Positions 3,070-19,536 of a stretch of 64,000 bases of DNA are shown piece after piece. The DNA is from Bacilli bacterium. GTDB lineage: Bacteria; Bacillota_I; Bacilli_A; RF39; UBA660. Positions within the stretch are counted from its first letter, which is position 1, and each line of letters opens with the position of its first letter. The stretch covers positions 421-64,420 of the forward strand of contig JAFXOW010000028.1 of the NCBI GenBank assembly GCA_017528315.1, in the 5' to 3' direction. The notes beneath the pieces were generated by a model, which saw nothing but the letters and a program-made list of their open reading frames with translations, did no database searches and was not told the DNA's origin. Position numbers and translations under genes: made by a program.

Positions 3070-3095
3070 GAAGGATATTAATCCTTCTTATTTCT
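3067..3095 (+). terminator. Hairpin plus short T-run after the adhesin gene (terminator or attenuator before the sortase)
   Basis: A 10-bp stem TAAGAAGGAT/ATCCTTCTTA (3067-3076 / 3081-3090) with loop ATTA, followed by TTTCT. Confidence 0.45.
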
Positions 3096-3112
3096 AAAAA
3101 TGGGGGTTAATC

Positions 3113-3850: not shown

Positions 3851-3875
3851 AGTGTCAAATTGATGCTCTTTTTTT
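3849..3875 (+). terminator. Weak intrinsic terminator after the sortase
   Basis: AGAGTGT / ATGCTCT stem (7 bp including 2 G-U pairs), 7-nt loop, then T6. Confidence 0.35.
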
Positions 3876-4673: not shown

Positions 4674-4675
4674 TA

Positions 4676-5365
4676 ATGAAAGAATTAGTAGTAATAGAAA
4701 AGCCAAATTCTACATTTGGGGAACAAATGAAAAAAGTTAGAACTAACTTAATGTTTTCGAATTTAGATGATGATATGAAAGTTATAATGATTACGTCATC
4801 TATTCCAGGAGAAGGCAAAAGTTTTATTTCATCAAATTTAGCAGCAGCTTTTGCTCAAGCTAATGAAAGTACGTTGTTAATTGATTGTGATTTAAGAAAA
4901 GGAAGACTTAAGAAAATATTTAATATTCCGCCGGAAGAAAAAGGATTATCAGAATTATTGATAAATAAAAATTGGCAAGAGGAATATATTAAATATATTA
5001 ATAAAACAGATGTTAATAAATTGTTTGTGATGACTTGTGGAGTTTATCCACCTAATCCATCAGAATTACTTGCTAGTGATAAATTTAAAGATTTATTAGA
5101 TGTTTTGAAAAAGAATTTTCAAATAATTATTCTTGATTGTCCACCGATAGCAGGTCTTAATGATGCTTTTGTACTTGCTAAGAAATCTGATAGATGTGTC
5201 TTAGTTGCTAATTGTGAGAAGACAACCATGGATACTTTGGAAAAATCAGTAAATGAACTTCAAAAAATGGATGTTAAAATATCTGGAATAATTTTAAATG
5301 ATAGTGATATTAAAAATAATAAATATTATTATTATGGTCATTATTATAGAGATGAGAAAGATTAA
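4676..5365 (+). CDS. cpsD: Capsular tyrosine-protein kinase (BY-kinase, CpsD/CapB type)
   Basis: Walker A motif SSIPGEGKS, a DxD (LLIDCDLRKG), Walker B (IIILDCPP) and a C-terminal Tyr cluster YYYYGHYY. Confidence 0.88.
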   Translation: MKELVVIEKPNSTFGEQMKKVRTNLMFSNLDDDMKVIMITSSIPGEGKSFISSNLAAAFAQANESTLLIDCDLRKGRLKKIFNIPPEEKGLSELLINKNWQEEYIKYINKTDVNKLFVMTCGVYPPNPSELLASDKFKDLLDVLKKNFQIIILDCPPIAGLNDAFVLAKKSDRCVLVANCEKTTMDTLEKSVNELQKMDVKISGIILNDSDIKNNKYYYYGHYYRDEKD

Positions 5366-6126
5366 TGAAAGATATTCATAGTCATATATTATTTGATATA
5401 GATGATGGAGCTTATAATATCGAAGAAAGTATTGAAATTATAAAGCAAGCAATTAATAATAAATATACTGATATAGTATTAACACCACATTATAGAAAAA
5501 AACAAAATTTTACGGCAAACAATAAGATTAAATTAGAATTATTTAATAAATTAGTAGATAAAGTTAAAAAAGAAAATTTAAAAATTAATCTATATTTAGG
5601 TAATGAAATAACAGTTAATGAAGATTTAATTTATAATTTAAATACTAAACAAGTTTTAACTATTAATAATAGTAGATATTTATTATTAGAACTTCCATTT
5701 AAAGGAAAACGTAAATATTTAGATGAGTTATTAGATGAACTTATAGAAAATGGATATATGATAATTATAGTTCATCCAGAAAGATATAAGGATTATTATA
5801 TAAAAGATTATAAAAAAATGATATCTAAAGGAATATTATTTCAAGGTAATATAGAAACTTTATATGGAAAGTATGGAAGATCAGTTAAATTAAAGTTAGA
5901 AAATATGTTAAAGAAACATATGATTCATTTTATGGGAAGTGATATTCATAAATCTTATGATATTACTTATGAAAGAAATATTAAAGAAAAATTAGAACAT
6001 TTACTAAATGATGAGATAATGGTAAATGATTTAATAAATAAAAATATTGATAAGGTTATTAAAAATAAAGAAGTAAAACCTTATCCAATTATAGAAAATA
6101 AAAAAATAAAAATATTTAATAAATAG
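5365..6126 (+). CDS. cpsB: PHP-family protein-tyrosine phosphatase (CpsB/Wzh type)
   Basis: N-terminal IHSHILFDIDDGA, plus VHPERY and GSDIH motifs. ATG overlaps the cpsD stop (TAATG). Confidence 0.85.
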   Translation: MKDIHSHILFDIDDGAYNIEESIEIIKQAINNKYTDIVLTPHYRKKQNFTANNKIKLELFNKLVDKVKKENLKINLYLGNEITVNEDLIYNLNTKQVLTINNSRYLLLELPFKGKRKYLDELLDELIENGYMIIIVHPERYKDYYIKDYKKMISKGILFQGNIETLYGKYGRSVKLKLENMLKKHMIHFMGSDIHKSYDITYERNIKEKLEHLLNDEIMVNDLINKNIDKVIKNKEVKPYPIIENKKIKIFNK

Positions 6127-6142
6127 TATAGGGGAATGTAGT

Positions 6143-6811
6143 ATGAATGGAACATTAGAATTAGAAAATGTAGTTACAGGTTTTGGTATAAGAAAGAAAG
6201 TATATAAAATAACTAAAAGAAGTTTCGATGTACTTATGGCAATGTTGGGTGTTATTGTAATGATACCAATTATTTTAGTTATAAAAACTAGTTATTTATT
6301 ATCTGGAGATAAAAAGTCAATTTTTTATAAGCAGATACGTATAGGAAAAGATGGTAAAAAATTTGAACTATTTAAATTTCGTAGTATGGTTTGGAATGCT
6401 GATGAAATATTAAAGGAGTTATTAAAAGAAAAAAAATATAAAGAAGAGTGGGATAGATATCAAAAGATTAATAATGATCCAAGAATTACCAAAGTTGGTA
6501 ATTTATTAAGAAAAACATCTCTTGATGAGTTGCCTCAGATGATTAATATTTTAAAAGGGGATATGTCTTTAATTGGACCTAGGCCACTTATTGAAGGAGA
6601 ACTTGATGAACATCATGGGAATCATGAAATATATGAGAAAGTAAGACCAGGGTTAACTAGTTGGTGGGCAGCTAACGGACGTTCTAATATAGAATATGAA
6701 GATAGATTAGCACTTGAATATTATTATGTTAATCACATGAGTTTTCTATTAGATATTAAATGCATTATAAGGACTGTTAAGGTTGTATTTAAGAAAAGTG
6801 GAGCTAAATAG
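6143..6811 (+). CDS. Undecaprenyl-phosphate sugar phosphotransferase (small bacterial sugar transferase, priming enzyme)
   Basis: FKFRSM...DPRITKVG..LRKTSLDELPQMINILKGDMSLIGPRP is the canonical Bac_transf signature. There is a single N-terminal TM. Confidence 0.85.
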   Translation: MNGTLELENVVTGFGIRKKVYKITKRSFDVLMAMLGVIVMIPIILVIKTSYLLSGDKKSIFYKQIRIGKDGKKFELFKFRSMVWNADEILKELLKEKKYKEEWDRYQKINNDPRITKVGNLLRKTSLDELPQMINILKGDMSLIGPRPLIEGELDEHHGNHEIYEKVRPGLTSWWAANGRSNIEYEDRLALEYYYVNHMSFLLDIKCIIRTVKVVFKKSGAK

Positions 6812-6812
6812 T

Positions 6813-7862
6813 ATGAAAAAGATTAATTTAGAAAATAAAACGGTATTGGTAACTGGTTCATCAGGGTTTATTGGTTCAAATTTATGTTTAAGACTTTTAG
6901 ATGAATATAATAATATTAAAGTAATTGGTCTTGATAACATGAATAACTATTATGATGTGTCTTTAAAAGAATATAGATTATCAAAATTGAAAAAGTTTGA
7001 TAACTTTATTTTTGTAAAGGGAAATTTACAAGATAAAGAATTATTCGATAGCTTATTTAAGAAATATAAGTTTGATATAGTTGTAAACTTAGCAGCTCAA
7101 GCGGGAGTTAGATATTCTATTACTAATCCTGACTCTTATATTGAATCTAATATTATAGGATTTTATAATATTTTGGAATGTTGTAGAAATAATCCGGTAG
7201 AACATTTAGTATATGCATCATCTTCATCTGTTTATGGTGGAAATAAAAAGATTCCATTTTCAACAGATGATAAAGTTGATAATCCTGTTAGTTTATATGC
7301 TGCAACTAAAAAGAGTAATGAGCTACTTGCGCATTCTTATTCAAAATTATATAATATACCTTCGACTGGACTTAGATTTTTTACAGTATATGGTCCGGCA
7401 GGACGTCCTGATATGGCCTATTTTGGGTTTACTGATAAATTAATTAATGGAGAAAAAATTCAAATATTTAATTATGGAAATTGTAAAAGAGATTTTACTT
7501 ATATAGATGATATTGTCGAAGGAATAATTAGAGTAATGCAGGGTGCACCAGAGAAAGTTATAGGTGATGATGGATTACCAATACCTCCATATAATGTTTA
7601 TAATATAGGAAACTCTAATCCTGAAAATTTACTTAATTTTGTAACTATACTTGAGGAAGAGTTGGTAAGAGCTGGAGTTCTTTCAAGTGATTATGATTTT
7701 GAATCACATAAGGAACTTGTACCTATGCAATCAGGTGATGTACCTGTAACCTATGCGGATACAACACCACTTGAAAAGGATTATGGTTTTAAACCTAATA
7801 CGAGCTTAAGAGATGGATTAAGAAAATTTGCAGAATGGTATAAAGAATATTATATGAAGTAG
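6813..7862 (+). CDS. UDP-glucuronate 4-epimerase (SDR family; makes UDP-GalA)
   Basis: Start trimmed to the ATG at 6813 (GGAG 9 nt upstream). Motifs seen: VLVTGSSGFIGSNL, DNMNNYYDVSLKEYRL, AAQAGVRYS, YASSSSVYG, YAATKKSNE, TGLRFFTVYGPAGRPDMA. This matches the pattern I recall for Cap1J/LpsL-type epimerases. Confidence 0.75.
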   Translation: MKKINLENKTVLVTGSSGFIGSNLCLRLLDEYNNIKVIGLDNMNNYYDVSLKEYRLSKLKKFDNFIFVKGNLQDKELFDSLFKKYKFDIVVNLAAQAGVRYSITNPDSYIESNIIGFYNILECCRNNPVEHLVYASSSSVYGGNKKIPFSTDDKVDNPVSLYAATKKSNELLAHSYSKLYNIPSTGLRFFTVYGPAGRPDMAYFGFTDKLINGEKIQIFNYGNCKRDFTYIDDIVEGIIRVMQGAPEKVIGDDGLPIPPYNVYNIGNSNPENLLNFVTILEEELVRAGVLSSDYDFESHKELVPMQSGDVPVTYADTTPLEKDYGFKPNTSLRDGLRKFAEWYKEYYMK

Positions 7863-7868
7863 AAAGAG

Positions 7869-8729
7869 GTGAAGAGTATGAAGCAAAAGACAATTGATAT
7901 AATTTGCCCATTATACAATGCTTCTAATTATATTGAAAAGCTTCACAAATCTTTATTGAAACAAAAAAATATTTTTATCAATAAATTTAGATATGTGTTA
8001 ACTGAGAGTGATGATAATACTGAAAAATATTTAAAAGATAATAATATTAATTGTAGAAAAATAAAAAGAAAAGAATTTTCTCATAGTTTAGTTCGGGAGA
8101 GAGAAGCATTAGCAAGTGATGCAGATATAGTTGTATTTATTACTCAGGATATAGTTATTGAAGATGATCTTTGGTTATATAAATTAGTTAAAGATATAGA
8201 TGATACGAATATAGTAGCTACATATGCAAGACAAATATCTAAATTTAATAATATAGAAAAATATACAAGAGAATCTAATTATCCGGATAAGGATATAATT
8301 AAATCAAAAAAAGATATAGATAAATTAAGATTAAAAACGTTTTTCTTTAGTGATGCAGCTAGTGCGATAAATACAAAAGTATTTAAAGAATTAAATGGAT
8401 ATGATAATAAGAATTTACCAATTAGTGAAGATATGTATATTGCTTATAAAATTATTATGAATGGATATAAAATAAAATATTGTGCTAATTCAATAGTATA
8501 TCATTCTCATAACTTTACATTAAAAGAAATATATAAGAGATATAAATTAACAGGCAAGTTTTTTAAAGAAAATTACTATTTAGATAAATATGGAACCACT
8601 GGAAGTGGTGTAAATCTTGCTAAATATATTCTTAAAAGAATATTTCAAGAAAAAAGATTTTTACTTTTATTTCGATATCCATTTGATATGGCCGCTAGAT
8701 TAATAGGAATGGAAGTAGGGAAGAGATAA
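7869..8729 (+). CDS. Glycosyltransferase family 2
   Basis: IDIICPLYNASNYIEKL (GT2 N-terminus) and an SEDMY acidic motif. The real start is probably ATG 7878, downstream of AGAAAGAGG. Confidence 0.7.
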   Translation: MKSMKQKTIDIICPLYNASNYIEKLHKSLLKQKNIFINKFRYVLTESDDNTEKYLKDNNINCRKIKRKEFSHSLVREREALASDADIVVFITQDIVIEDDLWLYKLVKDIDDTNIVATYARQISKFNNIEKYTRESNYPDKDIIKSKKDIDKLRLKTFFFSDAASAINTKVFKELNGYDNKNLPISEDMYIAYKIIMNGYKIKYCANSIVYHSHNFTLKEIYKRYKLTGKFFKENYYLDKYGTTGSGVNLAKYILKRIFQEKRFLLLFRYPFDMAARLIGMEVGKR

Positions 8730-9940
8730 TGAAAAATAAAGATAATAAATTTAATGTATTAATTATAAATGATTATGATTATGTTCAAGGTGGTGCTTCT
8801 AAAGTTGCCATAGATACTGCTAATTTATTAGTTGAAAACTATTCAAATGTTAATGTTTATTTTTTTTCTGGATGTCATAATGAATCATGTAATTTAGATA
8901 ATAAAGTTATTAAAATATGTACTAATCAACAAGAAGCAATTAAAGATAATAATAAAATACGTGGCATTATAAATGGAATTTATAATTTTAAAGCTAAAAA
9001 AGAATTGAATATGTTACTAAAAGAGCTTCCTAAAAGTAATACAATCATTCATATTCATGGTTGGACAAAATGTTTATCAACTAGTATTTTTCATATTATT
9101 TTTAAAATGAGATATAAAGTTGTATTAACAATGCATGATTATTTTACTGCATGTCCAAATGGAGGATATTATAATTATAAAAAAGATAAAATATGCATTT
9201 ATAAACCAATGTCATTAAAATGTATATTTTGTAATTGTGATTCTAGAAATTATATAATAAAAATATATAGAATATTAAGACAATTTGTTCAGAATAAAAT
9301 TGTTAAGTTAAATGATAATATAGAAAATGTTATTGCAATTTCAGATTTTAGCAAACAAATTTTAAAGAAAACTTTAAATAAAAAGACTAAAATTTATCAA
9401 ATAAATAATCCTATTGATATTAGCAAGGATAATTTTAAGGTAGATATCACAAAAAATAAATATTTTTTATATGTTGGAAGAATTTCTAAAGAAAAAGGTG
9501 TAGATATTTTTTGTGATTCAATTACTGAATTAAATTTAGATGGTATTGTAGTTGGTGATGGTGAAGAAAGAGATAAACTAGAAAAGCAATATCCTGAAAT
9601 AAAATTTGTTGGTTGGAAAAGTAATAATGAAGTAAAAGAATATATGAAAAATGCTAAAGCTTTAATTTTTCCAAGTAAATTGTATGAAGGAGCACCTTTG
9701 ACAACTAAAGAAGCATTATCTTTAGGAATACCTTGTATTGTAAGCGATAATTGTGCTGCTAAAGATGATATATTAAATAATAATGGTTTGCTTTTTAATA
9801 TAGAAAAAAAAGATTTAAGTAAAAAAATATTTGAATTTATAAAAAATGAAATAAAATATACTAAAATAAAATTTGATATTAATGACAATTATGTTAATGA
9901 TATTTATAAATGTTATGATGAAATAATAAATAAAAAATAG
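8729..9940 (+). CDS. Glycosyltransferase family 4 (GT-B, GT1-like)
   Basis: C-terminal YVGRISKEKG ... PSKLYEGAPLTTKEALSLGIPCIVSD (EX7E-type region). Start overlaps the previous stop. Confidence 0.75.
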   Translation: MKNKDNKFNVLIINDYDYVQGGASKVAIDTANLLVENYSNVNVYFFSGCHNESCNLDNKVIKICTNQQEAIKDNNKIRGIINGIYNFKAKKELNMLLKELPKSNTIIHIHGWTKCLSTSIFHIIFKMRYKVVLTMHDYFTACPNGGYYNYKKDKICIYKPMSLKCIFCNCDSRNYIIKIYRILRQFVQNKIVKLNDNIENVIAISDFSKQILKKTLNKKTKIYQINNPIDISKDNFKVDITKNKYFLYVGRISKEKGVDIFCDSITELNLDGIVVGDGEERDKLEKQYPEIKFVGWKSNNEVKEYMKNAKALIFPSKLYEGAPLTTKEALSLGIPCIVSDNCAAKDDILNNNGLLFNIEKKDLSKKIFEFIKNEIKYTKIKFDINDNYVNDIYKCYDEIINKK

Positions 9941-9950
9941 AGGAGTAGTT

Positions 9951-11228
9951 ATGGAAATACTAATTATAATTTCTTTTACAATTGTTTTTTTTGCGATAAT
10001 TTTAACTAAAAAGAAAATATATCATCCTGTAATTCTTTTTAATGGTATATGGTTAATTATTTTTATATTGTATAAAATGCAATTGATAGAATTTATTCCT
10101 ATCTCTAATAAAATAATTTTAATATTATTATTTATGATTGTTTTTTTTCCAATTGGTGTTTTTATAGGTGAAAGAATTACAATAAATAAAAAGGATTGTC
10201 ATCAAAAACAAAATTCATATTCTCTTCGAAAAAAAATATTTTTGTTTGTTTGTTTATTAACTATTATTAAAATGTTTTATGATGAAAGAGACATAATTAT
10301 AAATGTATTAAGCGGTTTATCTTTTCATACTATTATGGTTCAATCAGCTGGTAAGGGGACAGTGTTAATCAAGGGATTTTCGGTTGTTTTGTACATTTTC
10401 TTTATATATCCATGCATGTATTTTATATCTCCAGTATGTGCAAACGTTTTTTTTACAGAAAAAGGAAAAAATAAAATATATTATTTGTTATTAAATTTAG
10501 TGGTAGTTTTTTTGTCAGTAATGCATCATGGAGGAAGAAATTCTATATTTTTGTTTATAATTAGTTATGGTATAACATATTTAATGAAAAAGAAAAAAAT
10601 ATACATAAAACGAAAAACAAAACTATTGATATTTTTTGGATTAGCGATGGCATTTTTAGTAATTAATAATGTGTCAAATTCGAGAGGAATTAATGATATA
10701 GAGAAATCATTTTATGCATATTTTACATGTTCTATTCCTTTAAGTGAGTTATATTTATCCATACCTGTCATTAAAAATGCGTCTTTAGGAGGATATTTAT
10801 CTTTTAGTGGTTATATAACACCGATTATAATAATTTTAAAACATTTTGGTGTTACACCATCTAATAATTATTTGCTGGCATATAATATAAAAGAAATAAT
10901 TGAAAATAATTATTTATCAATAGGTAATTATGCTCTTAATATGAATGCATTTTTACCAGCTGGAACATATTTATATATTGATGGGGGTTATATCTTTGAA
11001 ATTATAGGTATGATAGCTTATGGAATATTTGTTGGTTATATTTTCTCTCTGACACAAAAAACAAATAATGAAAGGTTAAATGTTTTATATGTTTTGCTTT
11101 CAATAAGCCTTATTTTATCATTTATAAGATTTTATTTTACAACAATAAATTTTTCTTTAGCAATATTATATTTAATAATTTTATATAAAAAAGATAACGA
11201 TATAAAGGAGGATAGTAATCATGTCTAA
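9951..11228 (+). CDS. wzy: Polysaccharide/O-antigen polymerase (Wzy-like, polytopic membrane protein)
   Basis: About 10-12 predicted TM helices with a larger loop. No enzyme motifs. Its position inside a Wzx-containing locus supports the call. Confidence 0.55.
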   Translation: MEILIIISFTIVFFAIILTKKKIYHPVILFNGIWLIIFILYKMQLIEFIPISNKIILILLFMIVFFPIGVFIGERITINKKDCHQKQNSYSLRKKIFLFVCLLTIIKMFYDERDIIINVLSGLSFHTIMVQSAGKGTVLIKGFSVVLYIFFIYPCMYFISPVCANVFFTEKGKNKIYYLLLNLVVVFLSVMHHGGRNSIFLFIISYGITYLMKKKKIYIKRKTKLLIFFGLAMAFLVINNVSNSRGINDIEKSFYAYFTCSIPLSELYLSIPVIKNASLGGYLSFSGYITPIIIILKHFGVTPSNNYLLAYNIKEIIENNYLSIGNYALNMNAFLPAGTYLYIDGGYIFEIIGMIAYGIFVGYIFSLTQKTNNERLNVLYVLLSISLILSFIRFYFTTINFSLAILYLIILYKKDNDIKEDSNHV

Positions 11229-12384
11229 AAATAGAGTTATAGCGATATATTTACCTCAATTTCATCCAACTGAAATAAATAATAAAATATGGGGTAAAGG
11301 TTTTACGGAATGGACAAATGTTGCACTAGCGAAACCACAATTTAAAGGTCATTATCAACCTCAAATACCATCAGAACTTGGATTCTATGATTTAAGATTA
11401 GATGAAGTGAGAATTGAACAAGCTAAATTAGCTAAGCAATATGGAATTGAAGGATTCTGTTATTGGCATTATTGGTTTGGAGATGGAAAAAAGGCGTTAG
11501 AGATGCCATTCCAGAGATTACTAGAAACAAAAGAACCAGATTTTCCTTTTTGTTTAGCATGGGCTAATCATTCATGGTCTACTAAAACATGGAATAATGT
11601 TTCAAAAAATAGTAAAGAACAAGAGTTTTTAAAGCAAGAATATTTAGGAAAAGAGGATTATATAAAACATTTTAATTATGTTCTGCCAGCATTTAAAGAT
11701 CAAAGGTATATATGTGTTGATGGTAAGCCTTTATTTGCTATTTTTAATCCTAAAGAAATACCAGAAGATGAATTAAAAAAAATTATTGATCTATGGAATA
11801 GATTAGCAAGAGAGAATGGTTTAAAAGGAATTCATTTTGTTGCAAGAGTAGAAAAAATTGCTAAGTTAACGGATAGTGATATTAAAGAGAGAATTAAAGG
11901 ATCTTCCAAAGATTTTTATCAAAAATATTTGGATATGGGATTTGATGCTATTTGGCCAGAATCAATGAGAAAAGCTGAAATTCTTTCTAAAGGATTTTTT
12001 AAAATGTTTATTAAAAGAGTTTTATATCATAGTTTAAAAATAAGATTAATTGATAAATATAATTATAAAGATATTATTAATAATTTTTATAATGATTATG
12101 AAAAAGAAGAAAATGTTTATCCTATGATTATTCCACGTTGGGATAAAACGCCAAGACAAGGTAAAATTGCTACAATTTATCAAGGTAGTAGTCCAAAAAT
12201 TTTTAAAAAACATGTAAAAGATGCATTAGAATTAGTTAAATCGAAAAAAAGCGAACATCAAATTATTTTTTTACAGGCATGGAATGAATGGGGAGAAGGA
12301 AATTATATAGAACCAGATGTAAAATTTGGAAGAGGTTATTTAGAAGCATTAAAGGAGGCTTTGGATGAAGAAAATAAAGAATAA
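11221..12384 (+). CDS. WbsX-like glycosyltransferase / glycoside-hydrolase-like protein
   Basis: The N-terminus IAIYLPQFHPTEINNKIWGKGFTEWTNV matches the signature I recall for the Glyco_tran_WbsX family. It overlaps wzy by 8 nt. Confidence 0.6.
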   Translation: MSKNRVIAIYLPQFHPTEINNKIWGKGFTEWTNVALAKPQFKGHYQPQIPSELGFYDLRLDEVRIEQAKLAKQYGIEGFCYWHYWFGDGKKALEMPFQRLLETKEPDFPFCLAWANHSWSTKTWNNVSKNSKEQEFLKQEYLGKEDYIKHFNYVLPAFKDQRYICVDGKPLFAIFNPKEIPEDELKKIIDLWNRLARENGLKGIHFVARVEKIAKLTDSDIKERIKGSSKDFYQKYLDMGFDAIWPESMRKAEILSKGFFKMFIKRVLYHSLKIRLIDKYNYKDIINNFYNDYEKEENVYPMIIPRWDKTPRQGKIATIYQGSSPKIFKKHVKDALELVKSKKSEHQIIFLQAWNEWGEGNYIEPDVKFGRGYLEALKEALDEENKE

Positions 12385-13570
12385 TAGTATTAAAATATTG
12401 GTGGTTTTTCATAATTCAATGCTAGAAAGTGGTGCTACAAAGTCTTTGACTGATATATTAAATAATTTAATAACTAATAATATTTATAAATTTGATGTTG
12501 TTTTTCCTTCATCTACAGGTAGTGCAATTGATTATTATCGCAGTAAAAATATAAAAGTTTTTAATTATCAATATGGTAAACTTATGCAAAATTTAAATCA
12601 ATCTTTAATTAAGAGAATAATAAAGTTTCCGTTGTTATTGTATAGATATATAAATATTATAAGGGAAGCAAAGAAAGCAAGCAAAGAATTAAAAAGTAAT
12701 AATTATGATATTGTATATTCCAATACAAGTAGTATAATATTTGGTGCGTTGTTGGGAAAATATATGAAGTGTAAGCATATATGGCATATTAGAGAGTTTA
12801 GAAAGAAAGATCATCAAATATATTTTTTTCTTGGAGAAAAAAGGTTGAAAAAATTTATTAATAAATATTCGAATAAAGTATTATTTGTATCACAAAAAGT
12901 TATGGATGATAATATTGATTTTATTGACTATAACAAATGCATAGTAACATATAATAGTTATTCCAAAGATTTTATTCATAAAAAAGAAAAATTTAATATG
13001 AATGAAAAATTAAATGTGTTAATTGCGGGTGATATACAACCAAGTAAGGGACAATTTGATATTGTAAAAGCTATAGCTTTTTTAAATAATGATAAAGAAA
13101 AATTTAAATTACATATTGCTGGGAATGTATCTATTAATGATTATTATCAAAAAATTCTAAAATTTATTGATGATAACAATATGAAAGATCAGGTTACATT
13201 TTATGGTCACGTAAAAGATATGAAGAGTTTGCGAAAGAATATGGATATTGGAGTTGTTTCTTCAACATGTGAAGCATTTGGAAGAACTACAATTGAAGGA
13301 ATGCTTAGTATGCTTGCAATGATTGGAAGAGATAGTGGAGGTACTACTGAACAAATTGATAATAATGTTACAGGTTTGTTATATGATGGTACTGTAAATG
13401 ATTTAGTTGATAAACTTTTATTATTTTATAATGATAGAAAAAAAATGAAAGAAATAGCTATTAATGGTTTTGAAAATGCAATTGAAGAATATACTAATGG
13501 TCAATGTTATAAAAAAGTTGAACAAGCAATATATGATGTAATGAATACAATGTGTGGTGAAATTGAATGA
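12365..13570 (+). CDS. Glycosyltransferase family 4
   Basis: SSTCEAFGRTTIEGMLSMLAMIGRDSGGTTEQIDNNVTGLLY (GT-B C-terminal domain). It ends with TGA, overlapping the next ATG (ATGA). Confidence 0.75.
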   Translation: MKKIKNNSIKILVVFHNSMLESGATKSLTDILNNLITNNIYKFDVVFPSSTGSAIDYYRSKNIKVFNYQYGKLMQNLNQSLIKRIIKFPLLLYRYINIIREAKKASKELKSNNYDIVYSNTSSIIFGALLGKYMKCKHIWHIREFRKKDHQIYFFLGEKRLKKFINKYSNKVLFVSQKVMDDNIDFIDYNKCIVTYNSYSKDFIHKKEKFNMNEKLNVLIAGDIQPSKGQFDIVKAIAFLNNDKEKFKLHIAGNVSINDYYQKILKFIDDNNMKDQVTFYGHVKDMKSLRKNMDIGVVSSTCEAFGRTTIEGMLSMLAMIGRDSGGTTEQIDNNVTGLLYDGTVNDLVDKLLLFYNDRKKMKEIAINGFENAIEEYTNGQCYKKVEQAIYDVMNTMCGEIE

Positions 13571-14511
13571 ATTTAAAAAAATATTTTAATAATCCTAGTT
13601 TAATACTTTTAAAATTAGATAGAATGGGAATAAGATTATTATCAGATGAAAAATTTGTGAAAATAGTGTATAAAAATTATTTTAATAAAGAACTTAATTT
13701 AGAAGAACCAAAAACTTTTAATGAAAAAATTCAATGGTTAAAATTAAATGATAGAAAAGATATTTATACAACAATGGTAGATAAATATGAAGCGAAAGAA
13801 TATGTTGCTAATATAATAGGTAAGGAGTATATTATCCCAACTCTAGGTATTTATAATAAATTTAGTGATATTGATTTTAATGAATTGCCTGAACAATTTG
13901 TAATAAAGTGTACACATGATTCTGGCAGTATAATCGTTGTAAAAGATAAGAAAAATATAAATACAAAAGAAATGAAACGAAAAATAAATAAATCATTAAG
14001 AAAAAATTTTTATTATCGATATAGAGAGTGGCCATATAAAAATATTAAACCAAGAATAATAGTTGAAAAATATATGGAGGATAAAAAGTATCACGAGCTG
14101 AGAGATTATAAAGTATATGCATTTAATGGTAGATGTGATTATTTAATGTTATGTTTCGATAGAAATAGTGATGAAACAAAATTTGTTTTTTTTGATAGAG
14201 ATTGGAATATAAAAAAAGAGTTTACAAATGCCGGAATTAAATATGGGGATAAATTATGTATTACCAAGCCAAAAACTGTTGATAAGATGTTTGAATTTGC
14301 AAGTATACTTTCCAAAAATATACCATTTGTCCGAGTGGATTTTTATGAAGTTAATGGAAAGTGTTATTTTGGAGAATTAACATTTTATCCAAGTTCTGGG
14401 TTTGACACAAACAGAAGAAAAGAATCAGACGAATTCTTTTCAAGTCAATTAATAATAAATAAAAATAAAGGAGAAATAAATGAAAGAATTGGGATTTATA
14501 AAAAGTCATAA
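13567..14511 (+). CDS. TupA-like ATP-grasp amidoligase
   Basis: LNLEEPKTFNEKIQWLKLNDR... followed by FVIKCTHDSG, LRDYKVYAFNG and VRVDFYEVNGKCYFGELTFYPSSG. This is the ATP-grasp pattern of the teichuronopeptide TupA family. Confidence 0.65.
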   Translation: MNLKKYFNNPSLILLKLDRMGIRLLSDEKFVKIVYKNYFNKELNLEEPKTFNEKIQWLKLNDRKDIYTTMVDKYEAKEYVANIIGKEYIIPTLGIYNKFSDIDFNELPEQFVIKCTHDSGSIIVVKDKKNINTKEMKRKINKSLRKNFYYRYREWPYKNIKPRIIVEKYMEDKKYHELRDYKVYAFNGRCDYLMLCFDRNSDETKFVFFDRDWNIKKEFTNAGIKYGDKLCITKPKTVDKMFEFASILSKNIPFVRVDFYEVNGKCYFGELTFYPSSGFDTNRRKESDEFFSSQLIINKNKGEINERIGIYKKS

Positions 14512-15448
14512 AAATGGAGAAAAGAGAATTGGTTTAATACCTGAAATACTTGAAGGAATAAATCAAAAAGAAAAAATATTTATTGAAAAAGATTATGGAA
14601 AAGATTTAGGCTATGAAGATGTGGAATATGCTAAATATGGAGTTAATATAGTTGATAGAAGTAGAATTCTTAAATGTGATATTATAGTGGATGTTAAATT
14701 AGGAGATGCTGATTATTTGGATGAAATTGAAGACAATAAAATATTGTTTGGTTGGGCTCATGCAGTTCAGAATATTGATTTTACTACTAAGATGATTAAC
14801 AAAAAATGTACAGTAATTGCATGGGAAGAAATGTATGAAAAAGGAAGATATATATTCTATAAAAATAGAGAATTGGCTGGTGAAGCAGGTGTTTTGCAAG
14901 CAATATTGTATTCGGGAATAATGCCATATGATGCAAAAGTTGCAATAATAGGTAACGGTAAGACAGCTAAAGGAGCTTGTAGAGTATTAAATGGATTAGG
15001 AGCAGATGTAGATATATATAATAGAAAATTGGAAAAATTATTTCAAGAGAATATAGGATTATATGATTATATAATTAATTGTGTTATGTGGGATACATCT
15101 AGAAAAGATAAGTTGATATATAGAAAAGATTTGAAAAAGATGAAGGAAAATTCAATAATAATTGATATAAGTTGTGATCCATATTTGGAAATAGAAACAT
15201 CTCATCCTACAACTATTGATAATCCTGTATATAAAGTTGATGGTATTACTCATTATGCTGTAGATAATACACCTTCAATTTTTTATAGAACTGCTACGAT
15301 TAATATAACAAAGGCTATTTCAAATTATTATAATTATTTGATTGAAAGTAAAAAGAATGATGTAATAACAAATGCTGTAGTAATAAAAAATGGTTGTATT
15401 ATTGATAAAAGAATTACAGAGTTTAGAAAAAGTAGAAATATAATATAG
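14480..15448 (+). CDS. N5-(carboxyethyl)ornithine synthase-like opine dehydrogenase (alanine dehydrogenase/PNT fold)
   Basis: AAAGGAG RBS 6 nt before the ATG. Motifs GFIKSHKNGEKRIGLIPE, FGWAH, YKNRELAGEAGV, Rossmann KVAIIGNGKTAKGA, YDYIINCV, IIDISCD, DNPVYKVDGITHYAVDNTPSIFYR. These appear collinear with my recollection of Lactococcus CEOS. Confidence 0.6.
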   Translation: MKELGFIKSHKNGEKRIGLIPEILEGINQKEKIFIEKDYGKDLGYEDVEYAKYGVNIVDRSRILKCDIIVDVKLGDADYLDEIEDNKILFGWAHAVQNIDFTTKMINKKCTVIAWEEMYEKGRYIFYKNRELAGEAGVLQAILYSGIMPYDAKVAIIGNGKTAKGACRVLNGLGADVDIYNRKLEKLFQENIGLYDYIINCVMWDTSRKDKLIYRKDLKKMKENSIIIDISCDPYLEIETSHPTTIDNPVYKVDGITHYAVDNTPSIFYRTATINITKAISNYYNYLIESKKNDVITNAVVIKNGCIIDKRITEFRKSRNII

Positions 15449-15459
15449 AAGGAATTTTA

Positions 15460-16974
15460 ATGAGAAGTAAAAATGCATTTTATAATATTACAAGTAATAT
15501 ATTATTACAATTAATAACTATTATATACGGCTTTATTGTTCCTAAAATAATTATTAGTTCATTTGGTTCAAATGTAAATGGACTTATATCTTCAATTACA
15601 CAATTTTTAGCTTACATAACTCTTCTTGAATCTGGGTTTGGCCCAGTAGTTAGAGCATCTTTATATAAACCGATTGCAAGTAAAAATAATAAAACAATTG
15701 CAAATATTTTAAAAACATCTGAAAAATTTTTCCGAAAAATTGCTTATATCTTTCTAGCCTATATTTTTATTCTTTCTATTTTATATCCATTATTAGTTAG
15801 TAAAAATTTTGATTATTTATATACCATATCTTTAATTATTATTATTGCAATAAGTACTTTTGCTGAGTATTTTTTTGGAATGACGTATAGATTATTTTTA
15901 CAAGCTAAACAAAAAAATTATGTTATTTCTATAATACAAATAGGAACTTATTTATTAAGTATTATTGTAATTATTATATTGACGAGACTAGAAGCAAATA
16001 TTCAAATAATTAAATTAATTAGTGGCATTGTATTTATTTTTCGACCTTTATTACAAAATTTATATGTAAAGAAAAAGTTTGATATAAATTTAAAAAATGC
16101 TGATAATAATTATCAATTAAAAAATAAATGGGATGGTCTTGCACAACATATAGCATCAGTTATTCATAGTAATACTGATATAACAGTTTTAACATTTTTT
16201 TGTAGTTTAAATGAAGTATCAGTTTATTCTGTATATTATTTGGTAATAAAAGGTATAAAATCTCTTATTCAAGCCTTTACTAACGGAATTGATTCATCGT
16301 TTGGTGACATGATTGCAAAAGAAGAGTATGAAAATTTAAATGAAAAATTTAATTTATATGAAATTGGATATTTTACTTTATGCACAATTGTGTTTATTTG
16401 TACAATGATTTTAATTGTGCCATTTATTTCAGTGTATACAAAAGGTATAACAGATACTAATTATATTCGACCTTTATTTGGTTATTTAATTGTTATAAGT
16501 GAATATATTTGGGCTGTTAGGTTACCATATAGTTCTATTACATTAGCAGCAGGTCATTTTAAAGAAACAAGACGTGGCGCTTGGATTGAGGCAATTGTTA
16601 ATATTATTATTTCAATATTTTTAGTAAAAATATATGGAATAGTAGGCGTTGCAATTGGAACTATAATTGCTATGTTAATAAGGACAATAGAATTTATATA
16701 TCATTCTAATAAATATATTTTAAAAAGAAAAATATTTATTAGTGTAAAAAAGGTTATTTTGATTGCTATTGAAACTTTAATTTGTGTTTTTATTTCAAGA
16801 AAAATAAATATAGTTTGGGAAATTAATTATTTTAATTGGTTTATTAATGCATTAATTATTTTTGCAATCAATAGTGTAATTATATTAGCAATTAATATTA
16901 TAGTATATAAAAATGAATTTAAAAAAATATTTATAATTATTATGAAAATTTTAAGAAGAAAAATTCATAAATAA
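15460..16974 (+). CDS. wzx: Polysaccharide flippase (Wzx, MOP superfamily)
   Basis: 504 aa with ~12-14 TM helices. Its position in the locus fits a flippase. Confidence 0.7.
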   Translation: MRSKNAFYNITSNILLQLITIIYGFIVPKIIISSFGSNVNGLISSITQFLAYITLLESGFGPVVRASLYKPIASKNNKTIANILKTSEKFFRKIAYIFLAYIFILSILYPLLVSKNFDYLYTISLIIIIAISTFAEYFFGMTYRLFLQAKQKNYVISIIQIGTYLLSIIVIIILTRLEANIQIIKLISGIVFIFRPLLQNLYVKKKFDINLKNADNNYQLKNKWDGLAQHIASVIHSNTDITVLTFFCSLNEVSVYSVYYLVIKGIKSLIQAFTNGIDSSFGDMIAKEEYENLNEKFNLYEIGYFTLCTIVFICTMILIVPFISVYTKGITDTNYIRPLFGYLIVISEYIWAVRLPYSSITLAAGHFKETRRGAWIEAIVNIIISIFLVKIYGIVGVAIGTIIAMLIRTIEFIYHSNKYILKRKIFISVKKVILIAIETLICVFISRKINIVWEINYFNWFINALIIFAINSVIILAINIIVYKNEFKKIFIIIMKILRRKIHK

Positions 16975-16989
16975 TTAAAAGGAGTATAA

Positions 16990-18117
16990 ATGAAAAAATT
17001 TAATGATAGAGAAAACAATTATGATTTATTAAGAATACTTGCATGTTTTGCTGTAATTGTAGCTCATGTAAGCGCACAGTATATTGATAATATTACATTA
17101 CTTGGTACATTTTATTCAAATGGTGAATTAAGGATTATTATATTGTTTAATGTTTTATCAAGGTTTGCAGTTTCATCATTTGTTATGCTTTCAGGAGCGT
17201 TTTTATTATCGAATTATAAAAATAAAGATAGAAAAACATTTTATAAAAAATCAATAAAAACAATAGTTATTCCAACTCTTATTTTTTCAGTTTTTTATTT
17301 TTTAATTGCAGAAGCAAAAGTTTTGTTGGGAGTGATTAAATATGGAAATAATCTAAATGATATTTTAATTCCTATAAGAAACTTTTTGATAGGTTTACCA
17401 TATTATCATATGTGGTATATGTATATGTTAATTGGATTATATTTAATTATTCCTGATTTAATTTGTTATGTTGAAAAAATTGAAAAGAAAGAAAAAAATA
17501 TCTATTATTACATAGCTATAGTATTAATGTGTCTATATAGTGGTTTAACAACTATTATAACCATTAGATATTCTATTTGTAATGTTATGGTATATTCTGG
17601 CTATTTATTTTTAGGTTATAAAATACGTAAAAGTTTAAATAATAAAAAAAATAATAAAGTAGGATCTTTATTAATATTATCTGGTTTTATTATTTTAGCT
17701 TTATTGTCTATATATGCTTATAATAATTATATGTTAGTTTATAAGGTTCAATATAAATTGTTATCTACAAGTAATTTGGTATTTTCTATTACTAATTTCG
17801 GACCATTTATATGCCTTGCTTCTTCATTAATATTTGCTGGCTTTTCTAAAATGAATATAAAAAGAGATTTTACGAGAATTTCTAATAAAACATTTTTAAT
17901 TTTTTTATTTCACGCTATTGTTATATCAATAATATATATATTTGAAGATGATATATTAAAAATAAAACCTGATATTTTTCTTATAATGATAATAAATAGT
18001 ATTCTTTCATTTATTATTTCATATATATTATCTTGTGCTTATTTATGGTTGTATAAAAAAATAGATGTAAATGATTGCTTTGAAAAAATAGTGATAAAAA
18101 AGTTGCATTTAGATTAA
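16990..18117 (+). CDS. Acyltransferase family 3 (polysaccharide O-acetyltransferase)
   Basis: N-terminal NYDLLRILACFAVIVAHV signature and ~10 TM helices. Confidence 0.75.
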   Translation: MKKFNDRENNYDLLRILACFAVIVAHVSAQYIDNITLLGTFYSNGELRIIILFNVLSRFAVSSFVMLSGAFLLSNYKNKDRKTFYKKSIKTIVIPTLIFSVFYFLIAEAKVLLGVIKYGNNLNDILIPIRNFLIGLPYYHMWYMYMLIGLYLIIPDLICYVEKIEKKEKNIYYYIAIVLMCLYSGLTTIITIRYSICNVMVYSGYLFLGYKIRKSLNNKKNNKVGSLLILSGFIILALLSIYAYNNYMLVYKVQYKLLSTSNLVFSITNFGPFICLASSLIFAGFSKMNIKRDFTRISNKTFLIFLFHAIVISIIYIFEDDILKIKPDIFLIMIINSILSFIISYILSCAYLWLYKKIDVNDCFEKIVIKKLHLD

Positions 18118-18369: not shown

Positions 18370-19536
18370 ATGAAAATAGCAGTAGCAGGAACAGGATATG
18401 TAGGATTATCTTTAGCAACATTATTAAGTGTTAAAAATGAAGTAATTGCACTTGATATAATACCTGAAAAAGTAGAAATGATTAATAATCGTATATCACC
18501 TATAAAAGATGAATATATAGAAGAATATTTTAAAGAAAAAAAATTAAATCTAAAAGCAACACTTGATTATAAAGAAGCCATTAATGGTTCGGATTTTGTA
18601 ATTATTTCAACACCAACTAACTATGATGATGAAAAAAATTATTTTGATACATCAAGTGTTGAAGATATAATAGAGAAAGTAATAGAACTTGGAAATAATA
18701 CAACTATGGTAGTTAAATCAACTATACCAGTTGGATTTATAAAAAGTATGAGAGAAAAATATGAAATAGATAATATTTTCTTCTCACCAGAATTTTTAAG
18801 AGAAGGACAAGCTTTATATGATAATTTATATCCATCACGTATAATAGTTGGTGATAAAACAGAAAAAGCACATGAATTTGCTCAATTACTTAAAGAAGGT
18901 GCTTTAAAAGATGATATTGAAGTAAAATATATGGAATCAACGGAAGCGGAAGCAGTTAAATTATTTGCTAATACTTATTTAGCACTTCGAGTATCTTTTT
19001 TTAATGAACTTGATACTTATGCTGAACTTAAAGGACTTAATACCAAAGATATAATTGAGGGAGTATCTCTTGATCCAAGGATAGGAAATCATTATAATAA
19101 TCCATCTTTTGGATATGGTGGATATTGTTTACCAAAGGATACTAAACAATTACTTGCTAACTATAAAGATGTCCCTCAAAATTTAATTGAAGCTATAGTT
19201 AAATCTAATGATACCAGAAAAGATCATATAGCAAATATGATATTAAAAAATAATCCTAGTGTTGTTGGAATATATAGATTAACTATGAAAACTAATAGTG
19301 ATAATTTTAGAGCATCAGCTATTCAAGGAATAATAGAAAGACTTAAAAATAATAATGTTAAAGTAGTAATCTATGAACCAACCTTAAACAGTAATACTTT
19401 TAATGATTGTGAAGTAATAAAAGATTTCGAAGAATTTTCAAATATCTCCGATATAGTACTTGTAAATAGATTAGATGATAATACGAAAAAAATAGAAAAT
19501 ATGATTTATACAAGAGATTTATATAGTAGAGACTAA
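18370..19536 (+). CDS. ugd: UDP-glucose 6-dehydrogenase
   Basis: Start trimmed to MKIAVAGTGYVGLS (GAAGGAG upstream). Contains FSPEFLREG and the catalytic GYGGYCLPKD. Confidence 0.9.
   Translation: MKIAVAGTGYVGLSLATLLSVKNEVIALDIIPEKVEMINNRISPIKDEYIEEYFKEKKLNLKATLDYKEAINGSDFVIISTPTNYDDEKNYFDTSSVEDIIEKVIELGNNTTMVVKSTIPVGFIKSMREKYEIDNIFFSPEFLREGQALYDNLYPSRIIVGDKTEKAHEFAQLLKEGALKDDIEVKYMESTEAEAVKLFANTYLALRVSFFNELDTYAELKGLNTKDIIEGVSLDPRIGNHYNNPSFGYGGYCLPKDTKQLLANYKDVPQNLIEAIVKSNDTRKDHIANMILKNNPSVVGIYRLTMKTNSDNFRASAIQGIIERLKNNNVKVVIYEPTLNSNTFNDCEVIKDFEEFSNISDIVLVNRLDDNTKKIENMIYTRDLYSRD

What the first reader, a model, noticed from the sequence alone, without database searches (positions are those of the whole stretch)
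13567..15448. ATP-grasp amidoligase plus opine-dehydrogenase pair inside the capsule locus: possible amino-acid/opine-decorated uronic acid polysaccharide
Two translationally coupled genes sit between the last glycosyltransferase and the flippase (the 14480 start lies inside the 13567..14511 ORF). The first is a TupA-like ATP-grasp enzyme. That family is linked to teichuronopeptide synthesis, meaning amide linkage of amino acids to uronic acids. The second looks like Lactococcus N5-(carboxyethyl)ornithine synthase, which reductively condenses pyruvate with the side-chain amine of ornithine or lysine. The same locus encodes UDP-glucose dehydrogenase (18370-19536) and a UDP-glucuronate 4-epimerase (6813-7862), so UDP-GlcA and UDP-GalA should be available. 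Together this predicts a GalA/GlcA residue amidated with Lys/Orn that is further N-carboxyethylated. As far as I recall, N-epsilon-(1-carboxyethyl)lysine amide-linked to GalA is known chemically from some Providencia/Proteus O-antigens. A gene pair for it in a Gram-positive capsule would be unusual.
Basis: inference. Interest (0 to 1): 0.65.

Follow-up and report, generated by a model that had tools for sequence, protein, structure and literature searches.

The report
Capsule amino-acid ligase plus opine synthase
A capsule-making gene cluster of a low-GC gut anaerobe carries a two-gene cassette that most likely makes an unusual amino acid, carboxyethyl-lysine or carboxyethyl-ornithine, and attaches it to acidic sugars; the cassette is common across many bacterial phyla, but no experiment has linked it to this chemistry.

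Summary
ORFs 13567..14511 (TupA-like ATP-grasp, Pfam 5e-68) and 14480..15448 (AlaDh_PNT fold) overlap by 32 nt. They sit inside a tightly packed Gram-positive Wzy-type capsule operon that also encodes Ugd and a probable UDP-GlcA 4-epimerase.

The second protein is not an alanine dehydrogenase. In a tree rooted on PntA it groups with Lactococcus N5-(carboxyethyl)ornithine synthase (CEOS) in 200/200 bootstraps. It keeps the pyruvate-binding and catalytic residues, lacks both AlaDH insertions, and has the NADPH-type Y-x-R-K motif. It is only 31% identical to CEOS, so it belongs to a separate subfamily.

That subfamily is not rare. It was found in 231 GTDB species across eight or more phyla, at 54-64% identity. 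An ATP-grasp ligase lies within 6 kb in 49 of 80 loci, and a TupA-type one is directly adjacent in 21. A sister subfamily sits next to a probable ATP-grasp gene, Gla and Ugd in Providencia rettgeri, Shewanella, Aeromonas and Vibrio O-antigen/capsule loci. An ATP-grasp::CEOS-like fusion protein also exists.

Best reading: the dehydrogenase makes free N-(1-carboxyethyl)-Lys/Orn, and the ligase then amidates GlcA/GalA with it. The chemistry is inferred, not shown.

The parts
13567..14511 (+). TupA-like ATP-grasp carboxylate-amine ligase; predicted uronic-acid amidoligase
   Evidence: Pfam PF14305 at E 5.3e-68. The AF2 model has pLDDT 89.8. Foldseek top hits are D-Ala-D-Ala ligases, DcsG, LysX/ArgX and PsnB, with 194 hits at E<=1e-3. 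No hydrophobic segment. The last 13 residues, in the overlap region, are low-confidence and not conserved.
14480..15448 (+). CEOS-like NADPH-dependent reductive amine-pyruvate condensing enzyme (AlaDh_PNT fold); predicted N-(1-carboxyethyl)-Lys/Orn synthase
   Evidence: Pfam AlaDh_PNT_N and _C. TIGR00518 alaDH scores 103.5 bits against a cut-off of 391.85. It is 31% identical to Lactococcus CEOS, E 8e-45. It is monophyletic with CEOS in 200/200 bootstraps when rooted on PntA. R16, K73, H94 and D233 are conserved, the NRK motif replaces the acidic NAD residue, and both AlaDH insertions are absent.
14468..14473 (+). Shine-Dalgarno-like AAGGAG for the 14480 start, inside the upstream ORF
   Evidence: Read directly from the sequence.
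6813..7862 (+). SDR epimerase, probable UDP-glucuronate 4-epimerase (UDP-GalA supply)
   Evidence: Pfam Epimerase at 2.7e-55. PDB 5u4q (Klebsiella) at 1.6e-115; 6zl6 (B. cereus UDP-GlcA 4-epimerase) at 1.5e-41.
18370..19536 (+). UDP-glucose 6-dehydrogenase (UDP-GlcA supply)
   Evidence: NCBIfam NF011631 at 3.8e-168 and TIGR03026 above its cut-off. PDB 3phl at 2.8e-154.
15460..16974 (+). Wzx-type flippase (multi-TM)
   Evidence: No Pfam hit. There are 100 hydrophobic 19-residue windows. It is a jackhmmer homologue of Polysacc_synt proteins at the same position in related loci.
3996..18117 (+). Gram-positive Wzy-dependent capsule operon. Gene order: Wzz/CpsC, CpsD kinase, CpsB phosphatase, Bac_transf, epimerase, GT2, GT4, Wzy-like, WbsX GT, GT4, TupA-like, CEOS-like, flippase, Acyl_transf_3
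   Evidence: Pfam hits. Gaps between genes are -32 to +16 nt. The same gene order is seen in independent metagenome contigs.

Best explanation
This is a two-gene decoration cassette inside a capsule operon. Both proteins are soluble and cytoplasmic. The product of 14480..15448 is predicted to be an NADPH-dependent opine-type synthase of the CEOS clade. It reductively condenses pyruvate with the side-chain amine of free L-lysine or L-ornithine, giving N-epsilon-(1-carboxyethyl)lysine or N-delta-(1-carboxyethyl)ornithine. The product of 13567..14511 is predicted to be an ATP-grasp amidoligase. It activates the C6 carboxylate of a GlcA or GalA residue of the undecaprenyl-linked repeat unit as an acyl phosphate. 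It then joins that carboxylate to the alpha-amino group of the modified amino acid, before Wzx flips the unit. UDP-GlcA and UDP-GalA come from Ugd and the epimerase in the same operon. What is shown: gene structure, fold and family membership, clade placement, conserved catalytic residues, and recurrent linkage with ATP-grasp ligases and Ugd. What is inferred: the identity of the amine and the oxo acid, which sugar is modified, and the order of the two steps.
For: Family and fold. CEOS clade rather than AlaDH or PntA: NJ tree rooted on E. coli PntA, with all CEOS-like sequences monophyletic in 200/200 replicates. AlaDH pyruvate and catalytic residues are conserved as R16/K73/H94/D233. The acidic NAD-specifying residue is replaced by N-R-K (CEOS has Y-R-K). 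Both AlaDH-specific insertions are missing, as in CEOS. Linkage: of 80 GTDB loci, 21 have a TupA-like gene directly adjacent, 27 have one within 5 kb, and 49 have some ATP-grasp within 6 kb. Ugd occurs in 13/27 TupA-linked loci against 0/53 others, p = 6e-8. Individual contexts agree: Bhargavaea has flippase-TupA-CEOS-epimerase-Ugd, and P0042 has GT2-GT2-TupA-TupA-CEOS-TupA-Ugd on more than 500 contigs. The sister subfamily in Providencia rettgeri, Shewanella and an E. coli plasmid sits next to a probable ATP-grasp, Wzx, GTs, Gla and Ugd. A natural fusion of ATP-grasp and CEOS-like domains exists, P0461. A TupA-like domain, Cj1438C, is an experimentally shown GlcA amidoligase acting on the growing chain (PMC11800379). 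CE-Lys amide-linked to GalA exists in Providencia rustigianii O14 and Proteus O13 (PMC10609480, PMC11989651). On step order: the dehydrogenase is far more conserved than its ligase partners and also occurs alone.
Against: There are no biochemical or structural-chemistry data for this organism or for any member of this subfamily. Identity to the only characterised CEOS is 31%. Family-specific invariant residues (S231-C232-D233, R130-E131, D262) differ from CEOS, so the substrate could differ. None of the Gram-negative strains found here has a chemically defined CE-Lys antigen. In 31 of 80 loci no ATP-grasp lies nearby, so the enzyme is not tied to glycan decoration in every genome. The identity of L008 with the purified K1 enzyme rests on my memory of its N-terminal sequence.
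Confidence: 0.55

Rival explanations
1. Same chemistry, opposite order. The TupA-like ligase first amidates the uronic acid with plain Lys/Orn. The CEOS-like enzyme then carboxyethylates the free side-chain amine of the glycan-bound amino acid.
For: The two genes are translationally coupled. Plain lysine amides of GalA/GlcA also occur in Proteus O-antigens (PMC10609480), so Lys-accepting ligases exist. ATP-grasp::CEOS-like fusions fit either order.
Against: The dehydrogenase stays 54-64% identical across phyla with TupA, ATPgrasp_ST, ATP-grasp_3 or no ligase beside it, while the ligases and glycans vary. The characterised CEOS acts on free amino acids (established knowledge of EC 1.5.1.24).
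Confidence: 0.2
2. The dehydrogenase makes a different secondary-amine or amino-acid product. It might use another amine (alanine to give alanopine, a diamine, ethanolamine) or another 2-oxo acid (glyoxylate, 2-oxoglutarate). The ligase would then attach that product to the uronic acid.
For: Identity to CEOS is only 31%, and subfamily-specific invariant residues lie near the active site. Alanopine-type and other amide substituents are known in O-antigens (PMC10609480). Cj1438C uses ethanolamine phosphate or serinol phosphate (PMC11800379).
Against: The pyruvate-binding Arg/Lys/His are conserved with AlaDH and CEOS. The locus has no amino-sugar (DegT-type) genes that an alanopine-acyl linkage would need. 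The only known uronic-acid opine amide is CE-Lys.
Confidence: 0.17
3. The second gene is a functional alanine (or other amino-acid) dehydrogenase. It would supply an ordinary amino acid for the ligase, or be unrelated to the capsule.
For: The best PDB sequence matches are alanine dehydrogenases, E 1.8e-25. Some database entries of the sister subfamily are named alanine dehydrogenase.
Against: TIGR00518 scores 103.5 against a cut-off of 391.85. The protein is separated from AlaDH in 200/200 bootstraps. It lacks both AlaDH insertions and the acidic NAD residue. It is embedded in the operon with overlapping reading frames.
Confidence: 0.05

Closest known systems
N5-(carboxyethyl)ornithine synthase (CEOS, EC 1.5.1.24) of Lactococcus lactis
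   Same: Same AlaDh_PNT fold and length class (310 vs 322 aa). Same clade when rooted on PntA. Same conserved Arg/Lys/His/Asp, the NTP motif, the Y-x-R-K NADPH-type motif, and the same two deletions relative to AlaDH.
   Different: Only 31% identical. It has distinct invariant residues: SCD, RE, D262, AWEE. The Lactococcus, Vagococcus and Enterococcus genes stand alone among stress and metal-resistance genes on plasmids, whereas this one is translationally coupled to a ligase inside a capsule operon.
Cj1438 C-terminal domain of Campylobacter jejuni HS:2 (TupA-like ATP-grasp glucuronate amidoligase)
   Same: [quoted passage not shown] It forms an amide at C6 of GlcA on the growing chain (PMC11800379).
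   Different: Cj1438C is fused to a GT2 domain and uses ethanolamine phosphate or serinol phosphate. The window protein is free-standing, and its amine donor is predicted to be an opine-type amino acid. Sequence relatedness to Cj1438C was not measured here.
Gamma-proteobacterial O-antigen/capsule cassette (Providencia rettgeri, Shewanella, Aeromonas, Vibrio, E. coli plasmid p2017-01-4CC_1)
   Same: A CEOS-like gene overlaps the end of an upstream ligase-like gene. It is followed by Wzx, GTs and Wzy, with a Gla-type epimerase and Ugd. The genera include those where CE-Lys-GalA is chemically known (Providencia from PMC10609480; Shewanella from my memory).
   Different: The dehydrogenase is a separate 371-aa subfamily, about 30% identical, with a roughly 30-residue insertion. 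The partner is not TupA-like. The evidence that it is an ATP-grasp is weak: a faint RimK hit, and PDB profile hits to Ddl, PurD and ArgX at E 0.017-0.7 (hhalign against TupA E 0.32).
TupA and the teichuronopeptide of Bacillus halodurans C-125
   Same: It is the founding member of PF14305 and is linked to a uronic-acid/amino-acid wall polymer (established knowledge; not re-tested here).
   Different: Teichuronopeptide is a polyglutamate/polyglucuronate polymer. No opine synthase is known to be involved.

Membership tests
TupA-like ATP-grasp (Pfam PF14305) | Match to the family HMM above the gathering score over the full domain | tested here: met
   229.6 bits against 25; residues 53-291 cover model positions 1-236 of 241.
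TupA-like ATP-grasp (Pfam PF14305) | ATP-grasp carboxylate-amine ligase fold | tested here: met
   The AF2 model has pLDDT 89.8 and pTM 0.87. Foldseek top hits are Ddl, DcsG, LysX/ArgX and PsnB with probability 1.0, E down to 5.7e-07 and TM 0.38-0.44.
TupA-like ATP-grasp (Pfam PF14305) | ATP-dependent amide formation on a uronic-acid carboxylate | not testable with these tools
   Shown only for Cj1438C (PMC11800379). Here the support is Ugd co-occurrence: 13/27 against 0/53 loci.
N5-(carboxyethyl)ornithine synthase clade (EC 1.5.1.24) | AlaDh_PNT N- and C-terminal domains | tested here: met
   PF05222 at 5e-17 and PF01262 at 4.6e-27.
N5-(carboxyethyl)ornithine synthase clade (EC 1.5.1.24) | Groups with Lactococcus CEOS to the exclusion of alanine dehydrogenases and PntA | tested here: met
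   NJ tree rooted on E. coli PntA dI: the CEOS-like group is monophyletic in 200/200 bootstraps and AlaDH in 92.5%.
N5-(carboxyethyl)ornithine synthase clade (EC 1.5.1.24) | NADPH-type dinucleotide site and CEOS-type indel pattern | tested here: met
   N181-R182-K183 in place of the AlaDH D/E. The 14-residue and roughly 21-residue AlaDH insertions are absent in both this protein and CEOS. Cofactor preference itself is inferred.
N5-(carboxyethyl)ornithine synthase clade (EC 1.5.1.24) | Close enough to the characterised enzyme to assume the same substrates | tested here: inconclusive
   31% identity, E 8e-45. It is a separate subfamily that collapses to a single 50%-identity cluster.
N5-(carboxyethyl)ornithine synthase clade (EC 1.5.1.24) | Reductive condensation of pyruvate with Orn/Lys side-chain amine | not testable with these tools
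   Needs an enzyme assay.
Alanine dehydrogenase (TIGR00518) | Score above the equivalog cut-off | tested here: not met
   103.5 bits against 391.85.
Classical opine dehydrogenases (octopine/nopaline DH, Pfam Octopine_DH) | Match to the Octopine_DH domain | tested here: not met
   No such hit at E<=0.01. It may work like an opine synthase, but it belongs to a different fold family.
Gram-positive Wzy-dependent capsule locus | CpsC/Wzz, CpsD kinase, CpsB phosphatase, initiating Bac_transf, GTs, Wzy and Wzx in one operon | tested here: met
   Wzy support is weak (O-ag_pol_Wzy E 0.0028, multi-TM). Wzx is assigned by homology to Polysacc_synt proteins of related loci.

The most novel reading that the evidence does not exclude
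The CEOS-like gene family is the so-far unassigned genetic determinant of N-(1-carboxyethyl)-lysine/ornithine decoration of surface polysaccharides. Together with interchangeable ATP-grasp ligases it forms a horizontally mobile cassette present in more than 200 species, from gut Bacillota and Bacteroidota to Providencia, Shewanella and Vibrio. Many commensals would then display carboxyethyl-lysine on their capsules. This is the same structure as the host glycation end-product CEL, so it could affect anti-AGE antibodies or RAGE signalling.
Probability: 0.35. Interest if true: 0.7.

Novelty: new variant of a known kind. Interest (0 to 1): 0.5.

Why it matters
Amino-acid amides of uronic acids are major serological determinants of O-antigens and capsules. 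Their genetics are barely known: only one TupA-like amidoligase has been characterised. The reading here has three consequences if correct. It would give a testable gene assignment for the carboxyethyl-lysine substituent known chemically since the 1990s. It would reassign a widespread family, annotated as 'N5-(carboxyethyl)ornithine synthase' or 'alanine dehydrogenase', from amino-acid metabolism to glycan decoration. It would also predict that opine-type, zwitterion-forming decorations are common on capsules of uncultured gut anaerobes. Such charge motifs affect immune recognition and phage adsorption.

Tried and rejected
1. NCBIfam has no CEOS-specific model, and only sub-threshold alaDH/pntA hits appeared.
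2. A PDB sequence search with the TupA-like protein found nothing, so the fold was shown through an AF2 model and Foldseek instead.
3. A single-query phmmer neighbour census turned out not to be the limiting step. The jackhmmer re-run gave the same TupA picture, and the 'empty' loci truly lack TupA. They carry ATPgrasp_ST proteins or nothing. The jackhmmer GT2 query did not generalise, so the glycosyltransferase context of those loci is under-called.
4. I checked whether the 'empty' loci were masked with N. They were not.
5. The 'PntA' outgroup taken from a Photobacterium plasmid hit was really a truncated AlaDH-like fragment. It was replaced by E. coli PntA.
7. hhalign of the gamma-proteobacterial partner against TupA was not significant (E 0.32). 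Its ATP-grasp nature rests on weak but consistent PDB hits and a faint RimK hit.
8. Literature searches for any paper linking CEOS-like genes to polysaccharides, or assigning genes for CE-Lys in Proteus or Providencia, found none in the held library. Iyer et al. 2009 and Riegert et al. 2022 were not held.
9. Cluster members of the Providencia, Aeromonas, Shewanella and Vibrio proteins did not include a strain with a chemically defined CE-Lys antigen.
10. The promoter scan was uninformative in this AT-rich DNA: 172 sites found against 171.5 expected.
Full report
**1. Observation**

- The second start lies 32 nt inside the first ORF, 6 nt after a GGAG at 14470-14473.
- The first ORF starts in an ATGA overlap with the preceding glycosyltransferase gene.
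- The start at 14480 matches the invariant Met and conserved N-terminus of homologues.
- Gaps between the fourteen genes from 3996 to 18117 range from -32 to +16 nt. A terminator-like hairpin precedes the block at 3849-3869. This is one operon.

The gene content is that of a Gram-positive Wzy-dependent capsule locus:
- Wzz/CpsC, a CpsD-type kinase and a CpsB phosphatase
- an initiating Bac_transf sugar transferase
- an SDR epimerase
- GT2, GT4, a Wzy-like multi-TM protein, a WbsX glycosyltransferase and a second GT4
- the two genes of interest
- a multi-TM flippase and an Acyl_transf_3 O-acyltransferase
- after a 252-nt gap, Ugd

The window is chromosomal DNA of a 24% GC anaerobic Firmicute known only from metagenomes. 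It also carries NrdD, MurD, enolase, a PASTA-domain PBP and a Cna_B/sortase pair.

**2. The first gene**

It matches ATPgrasp_TupA at E 5.3e-68 over the whole domain. An AlphaFold2 model built on 37 homologues has mean pLDDT 89.8. In the PDB the model matches ATP-grasp carboxylate-amine ligases: D-Ala-D-Ala ligases, DcsG, LysX/ArgX and PsnB, with 194 hits at E<=1e-3. The protein has no hydrophobic segment, so it is cytoplasmic. One member of this Pfam family, the C-terminal domain of C. jejuni Cj1438, has been shown to amidate the C6 carboxylate of glucuronic acid in the growing capsule chain (PMC11800379).

**3. The second gene**

It has both AlaDh_PNT domains. Its best PDB sequence matches are alanine dehydrogenases (E about 1e-25). 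It scores far below the alaDH equivalog cut-off, 103.5 against 391.85 bits.

Annotated CEOS genes on Lactococcus, Vagococcus and Enterococcus plasmids were retrieved for comparison. The Lactococcus protein begins with the N-terminal sequence I remember for the purified K1 enzyme. That link rests on memory and was not tested. Identity to the window protein is 31%, E 8e-45.

A neighbour-joining tree rooted on E. coli PntA domain I shows two clean groups.
- All CEOS-like sequences are monophyletic in 200 of 200 bootstrap replicates. The group comprises the window protein, its close family, more distant representatives, the gamma-proteobacterial type, two fusion proteins and the Lactococcus group.
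- The four alanine dehydrogenases are monophyletic in 92.5% of replicates.

The alignment explains the split.
- The AlaDH pyruvate-binding and catalytic Arg15, Lys74, His95 and Asp270 are kept as R16, K73, H94 and D233.
- The acidic residue that specifies NAD in AlaDH is replaced by N-R-K. CEOS has Y-R-K there, and CEOS is an NADP enzyme.
- Two AlaDH-specific insertions are missing in both the window protein and CEOS.
- The NTP motif is shared with CEOS.

The window protein still belongs to its own subfamily, with invariant residues that CEOS lacks: SCD 231-233, RE 130-131 and D262.

**4. Distribution**

The subfamily is very coherent.
- 1360 clusters at 90% identity were found at E<=1e-5, most of them 58-76% identical to the query.
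- In a library clustered at 50% identity the subfamily collapses to essentially one representative. Only 69 representatives reach E<=1e-30.
- A pattern scan of one genome per GTDB species found it in 231 species.

The best 80 loci are 54-64% identical. They come from:
- Bacillota (Oscillospiraceae, Lachnospiraceae, Planococcaceae, Erysipelotrichaceae, Negativicutes)
- Bacteroidota
- Actinomycetota (Eggerthella, Collinsella)
- Fibrobacter and Lentisphaeria
- Alphaproteobacteria MAGs
- a Patescibacteria MAG and a Chloroflexota MAG

A gene pair of this kind in a Gram-positive is therefore not unusual at the sequence level.

**5. Linkage**

Iterative profile searches over the 80 loci gave these counts:

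| Feature near the CEOS-like gene | Loci (of 80) |
|---|---|
| TupA-like gene directly adjacent (upstream only 8, downstream only 5, both sides 8) | 21 |
| TupA-like gene within 5 kb | 27 |
| Any ATP-grasp (TupA, ATPgrasp_ST or ATP-grasp_3) within 6 kb | 49 |
| No ATP-grasp nearby (mostly Planococcus) | 31 |

- Ugd lies within 10 kb in 13 of the 27 TupA-linked loci and in none of the other 53 (Fisher p = 6e-8).
- Precomputed Pfam contexts agree. Bhargavaea has flippase, TupA, CEOS-like, epimerase, Ugd, Bac_transf.
- The very common gut protein P0042 sits in GT2, GT2, TupA, TupA, CEOS-like, TupA, Ugd, ABC transporter.
- Merdibacter has ATP-grasp_3, ATPgrasp_ST, PGA_cap, CEOS-like, Wzy, flippase.
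- In Oscillospiraceae the gene overlaps the end of a 749-aa ATPgrasp_ST protein.
- A metagenomic protein, P0461, fuses an ATP-grasp domain to a CEOS-like domain.

**6. Gram-negative counterpart**

An E. coli IncFIB/IncY plasmid carries an IS91-bracketed capsule locus. In it a 371-aa CEOS-like gene overlaps the end of a 322-aa gene of unknown family. It is followed by Wzx, glycosyltransferases, an EpsG-type Wzy, a Gla-type epimerase and Ugd.

Close relatives of the dehydrogenase, all named CEOS or alanine dehydrogenase by their sources:

| Organism | Identity |
|---|---|
| Aeromonas hydrophila | 99% |
| Shewanella | 87-88% |
| Vibrio cholerae | 78% |
| Providencia rettgeri | 77% |
| Edwardsiella | 72% |
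| Pseudoalteromonas | 70% |

The same gene order is found beside cpxA in Providencia rettgeri and in Shewanella sp. SM95. The upstream partner is probably a divergent ATP-grasp. It has a faint RimK hit, and the only PDB profile hits are Ddl, PurD and ArgX at E 0.017-0.7. This is weak evidence, and hhalign against TupA is not significant.

N-epsilon-(1-carboxyethyl)-N-alpha-(D-galacturonoyl)-L-lysine is a documented constituent of Providencia rustigianii O14 and Proteus O13 (PMC10609480, PMC11989651). From memory, it also occurs in Shewanella fidelis. None of the strains recovered here is known to be one of those serotypes, so the link between gene and chemistry remains circumstantial. No paper in the held library assigns genes to this substituent or connects CEOS-like genes with polysaccharides.

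**7. Mechanism**

The most likely pathway is given in the Best explanation section. In short, the dehydrogenase makes free N-(1-carboxyethyl)-Lys or -Orn from pyruvate, the amino acid and NADPH. The ligase then joins the alpha-amino group of that product to the C6 carboxylate of a GlcA or GalA residue of the lipid-linked repeat unit, on the cytoplasmic face before flipping.

- The dehydrogenase stays 54-64% identical across phyla, whichever ligase family accompanies it or none. The adjacent TupA-like ligases are only 33-59% identical to the window's. That pattern fits an enzyme acting on universal small metabolites and a ligase that must read a variable glycan.
- The characterised CEOS acts on free amino acids.

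The reverse order, a different amine or oxo acid, and a genuine amino-acid dehydrogenase remain as rivals, in decreasing likelihood.

**8. Verdict**

- Relatedness to CEOS is at subfamily level only (31% identity).
- The cassette is widespread, not rare.

The window's locus is one ordinary member of a large, horizontally spread set. What is new is the pathway assignment, which to my knowledge and in the searched literature has not been made or tested. Interest is moderate.

Noticed in passing
window 265-3850: A 934-aa surface protein with nine Cna_B repeats is followed by a sortase gene, immediately upstream of the capsule operon. A terminator-like hairpin at 3849-3869 separates them.
   Followed up: partly
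P0461 (metagenomic protein, 784 aa) and P0399 (990 aa): P0461 is a natural fusion of an N-terminal ATP-grasp domain (ATP-grasp_4/CPSase_L_D2, residues 112-290) with a C-terminal CEOS-like domain of the gamma-proteobacterial subtype. P0399 joins an unknown 645-aa N-terminus with (DTGTL)n repeats to a CEOS-like C-terminus.
   Followed up: partly
L007 (E. coli plasmid NZ_AP027746.1, 162124-181188): A complete Wza/Wzb/Wzc capsule locus is bracketed by two identical IS91 transposase copies on an IncFIB/IncY plasmid. Its CEOS-like gene is 99% identical to an Aeromonas hydrophila protein, which suggests recent transfer of a surface-polysaccharide locus between genera.
   Followed up: partly
L049, L061, L063-L068, L073, L074, L078, L079, L082, L083, L085-L087 (Planococcus and relatives): In these genomes the CEOS-like gene (54-57% identical to the window's) stands alone, with no ATP-grasp or polysaccharide genes within 6-10 kb. 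In L063 it is flanked by an S8 peptidase with CWB2 domains and a large TPR/C39 protein. Its role there is unexplained. It might make a free opine.
   Followed up: partly
L011-L034 (Oscillospiraceae-type loci), e.g. L012 5517-12393: The CEOS-like gene overlaps the end of a 749-aa protein whose C-terminus is an ATPgrasp_ST domain. A second 670-aa ATPgrasp_ST protein is divergently placed, and MoaA and MOSC genes lie downstream. The N-terminal 400-500 residues of the large proteins have no Pfam match.
   Followed up: no
L027, L029, L032: Contigs from MAG bins labelled Escherichia coli, Phascolarctobacterium succinatutens and Collinsella aerofaciens carry the Oscillospiraceae-type locus (about 54% GC where checked). 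They cluster tightly with Oscillospiraceae sequences in the tree, so they are probably mis-binned.
   Followed up: no
L037, L038, L039, L043, L045, L052, L055, L062, L089, L090: Many loci have two to four TupA-like paralogues around the CEOS-like gene, and eight of 80 have one on each side. Some are long multidomain proteins of 577-1007 aa. This hints at several different amide decorations or short peptide side chains on one polymer.
   Followed up: no
window 19614-20111: A small ORF just after Ugd has a weak N-terminal prepilin-type methylation motif (N_methyl, E 0.0047). It could be a type IV pilin-like or competence pseudopilin gene.
   Followed up: no
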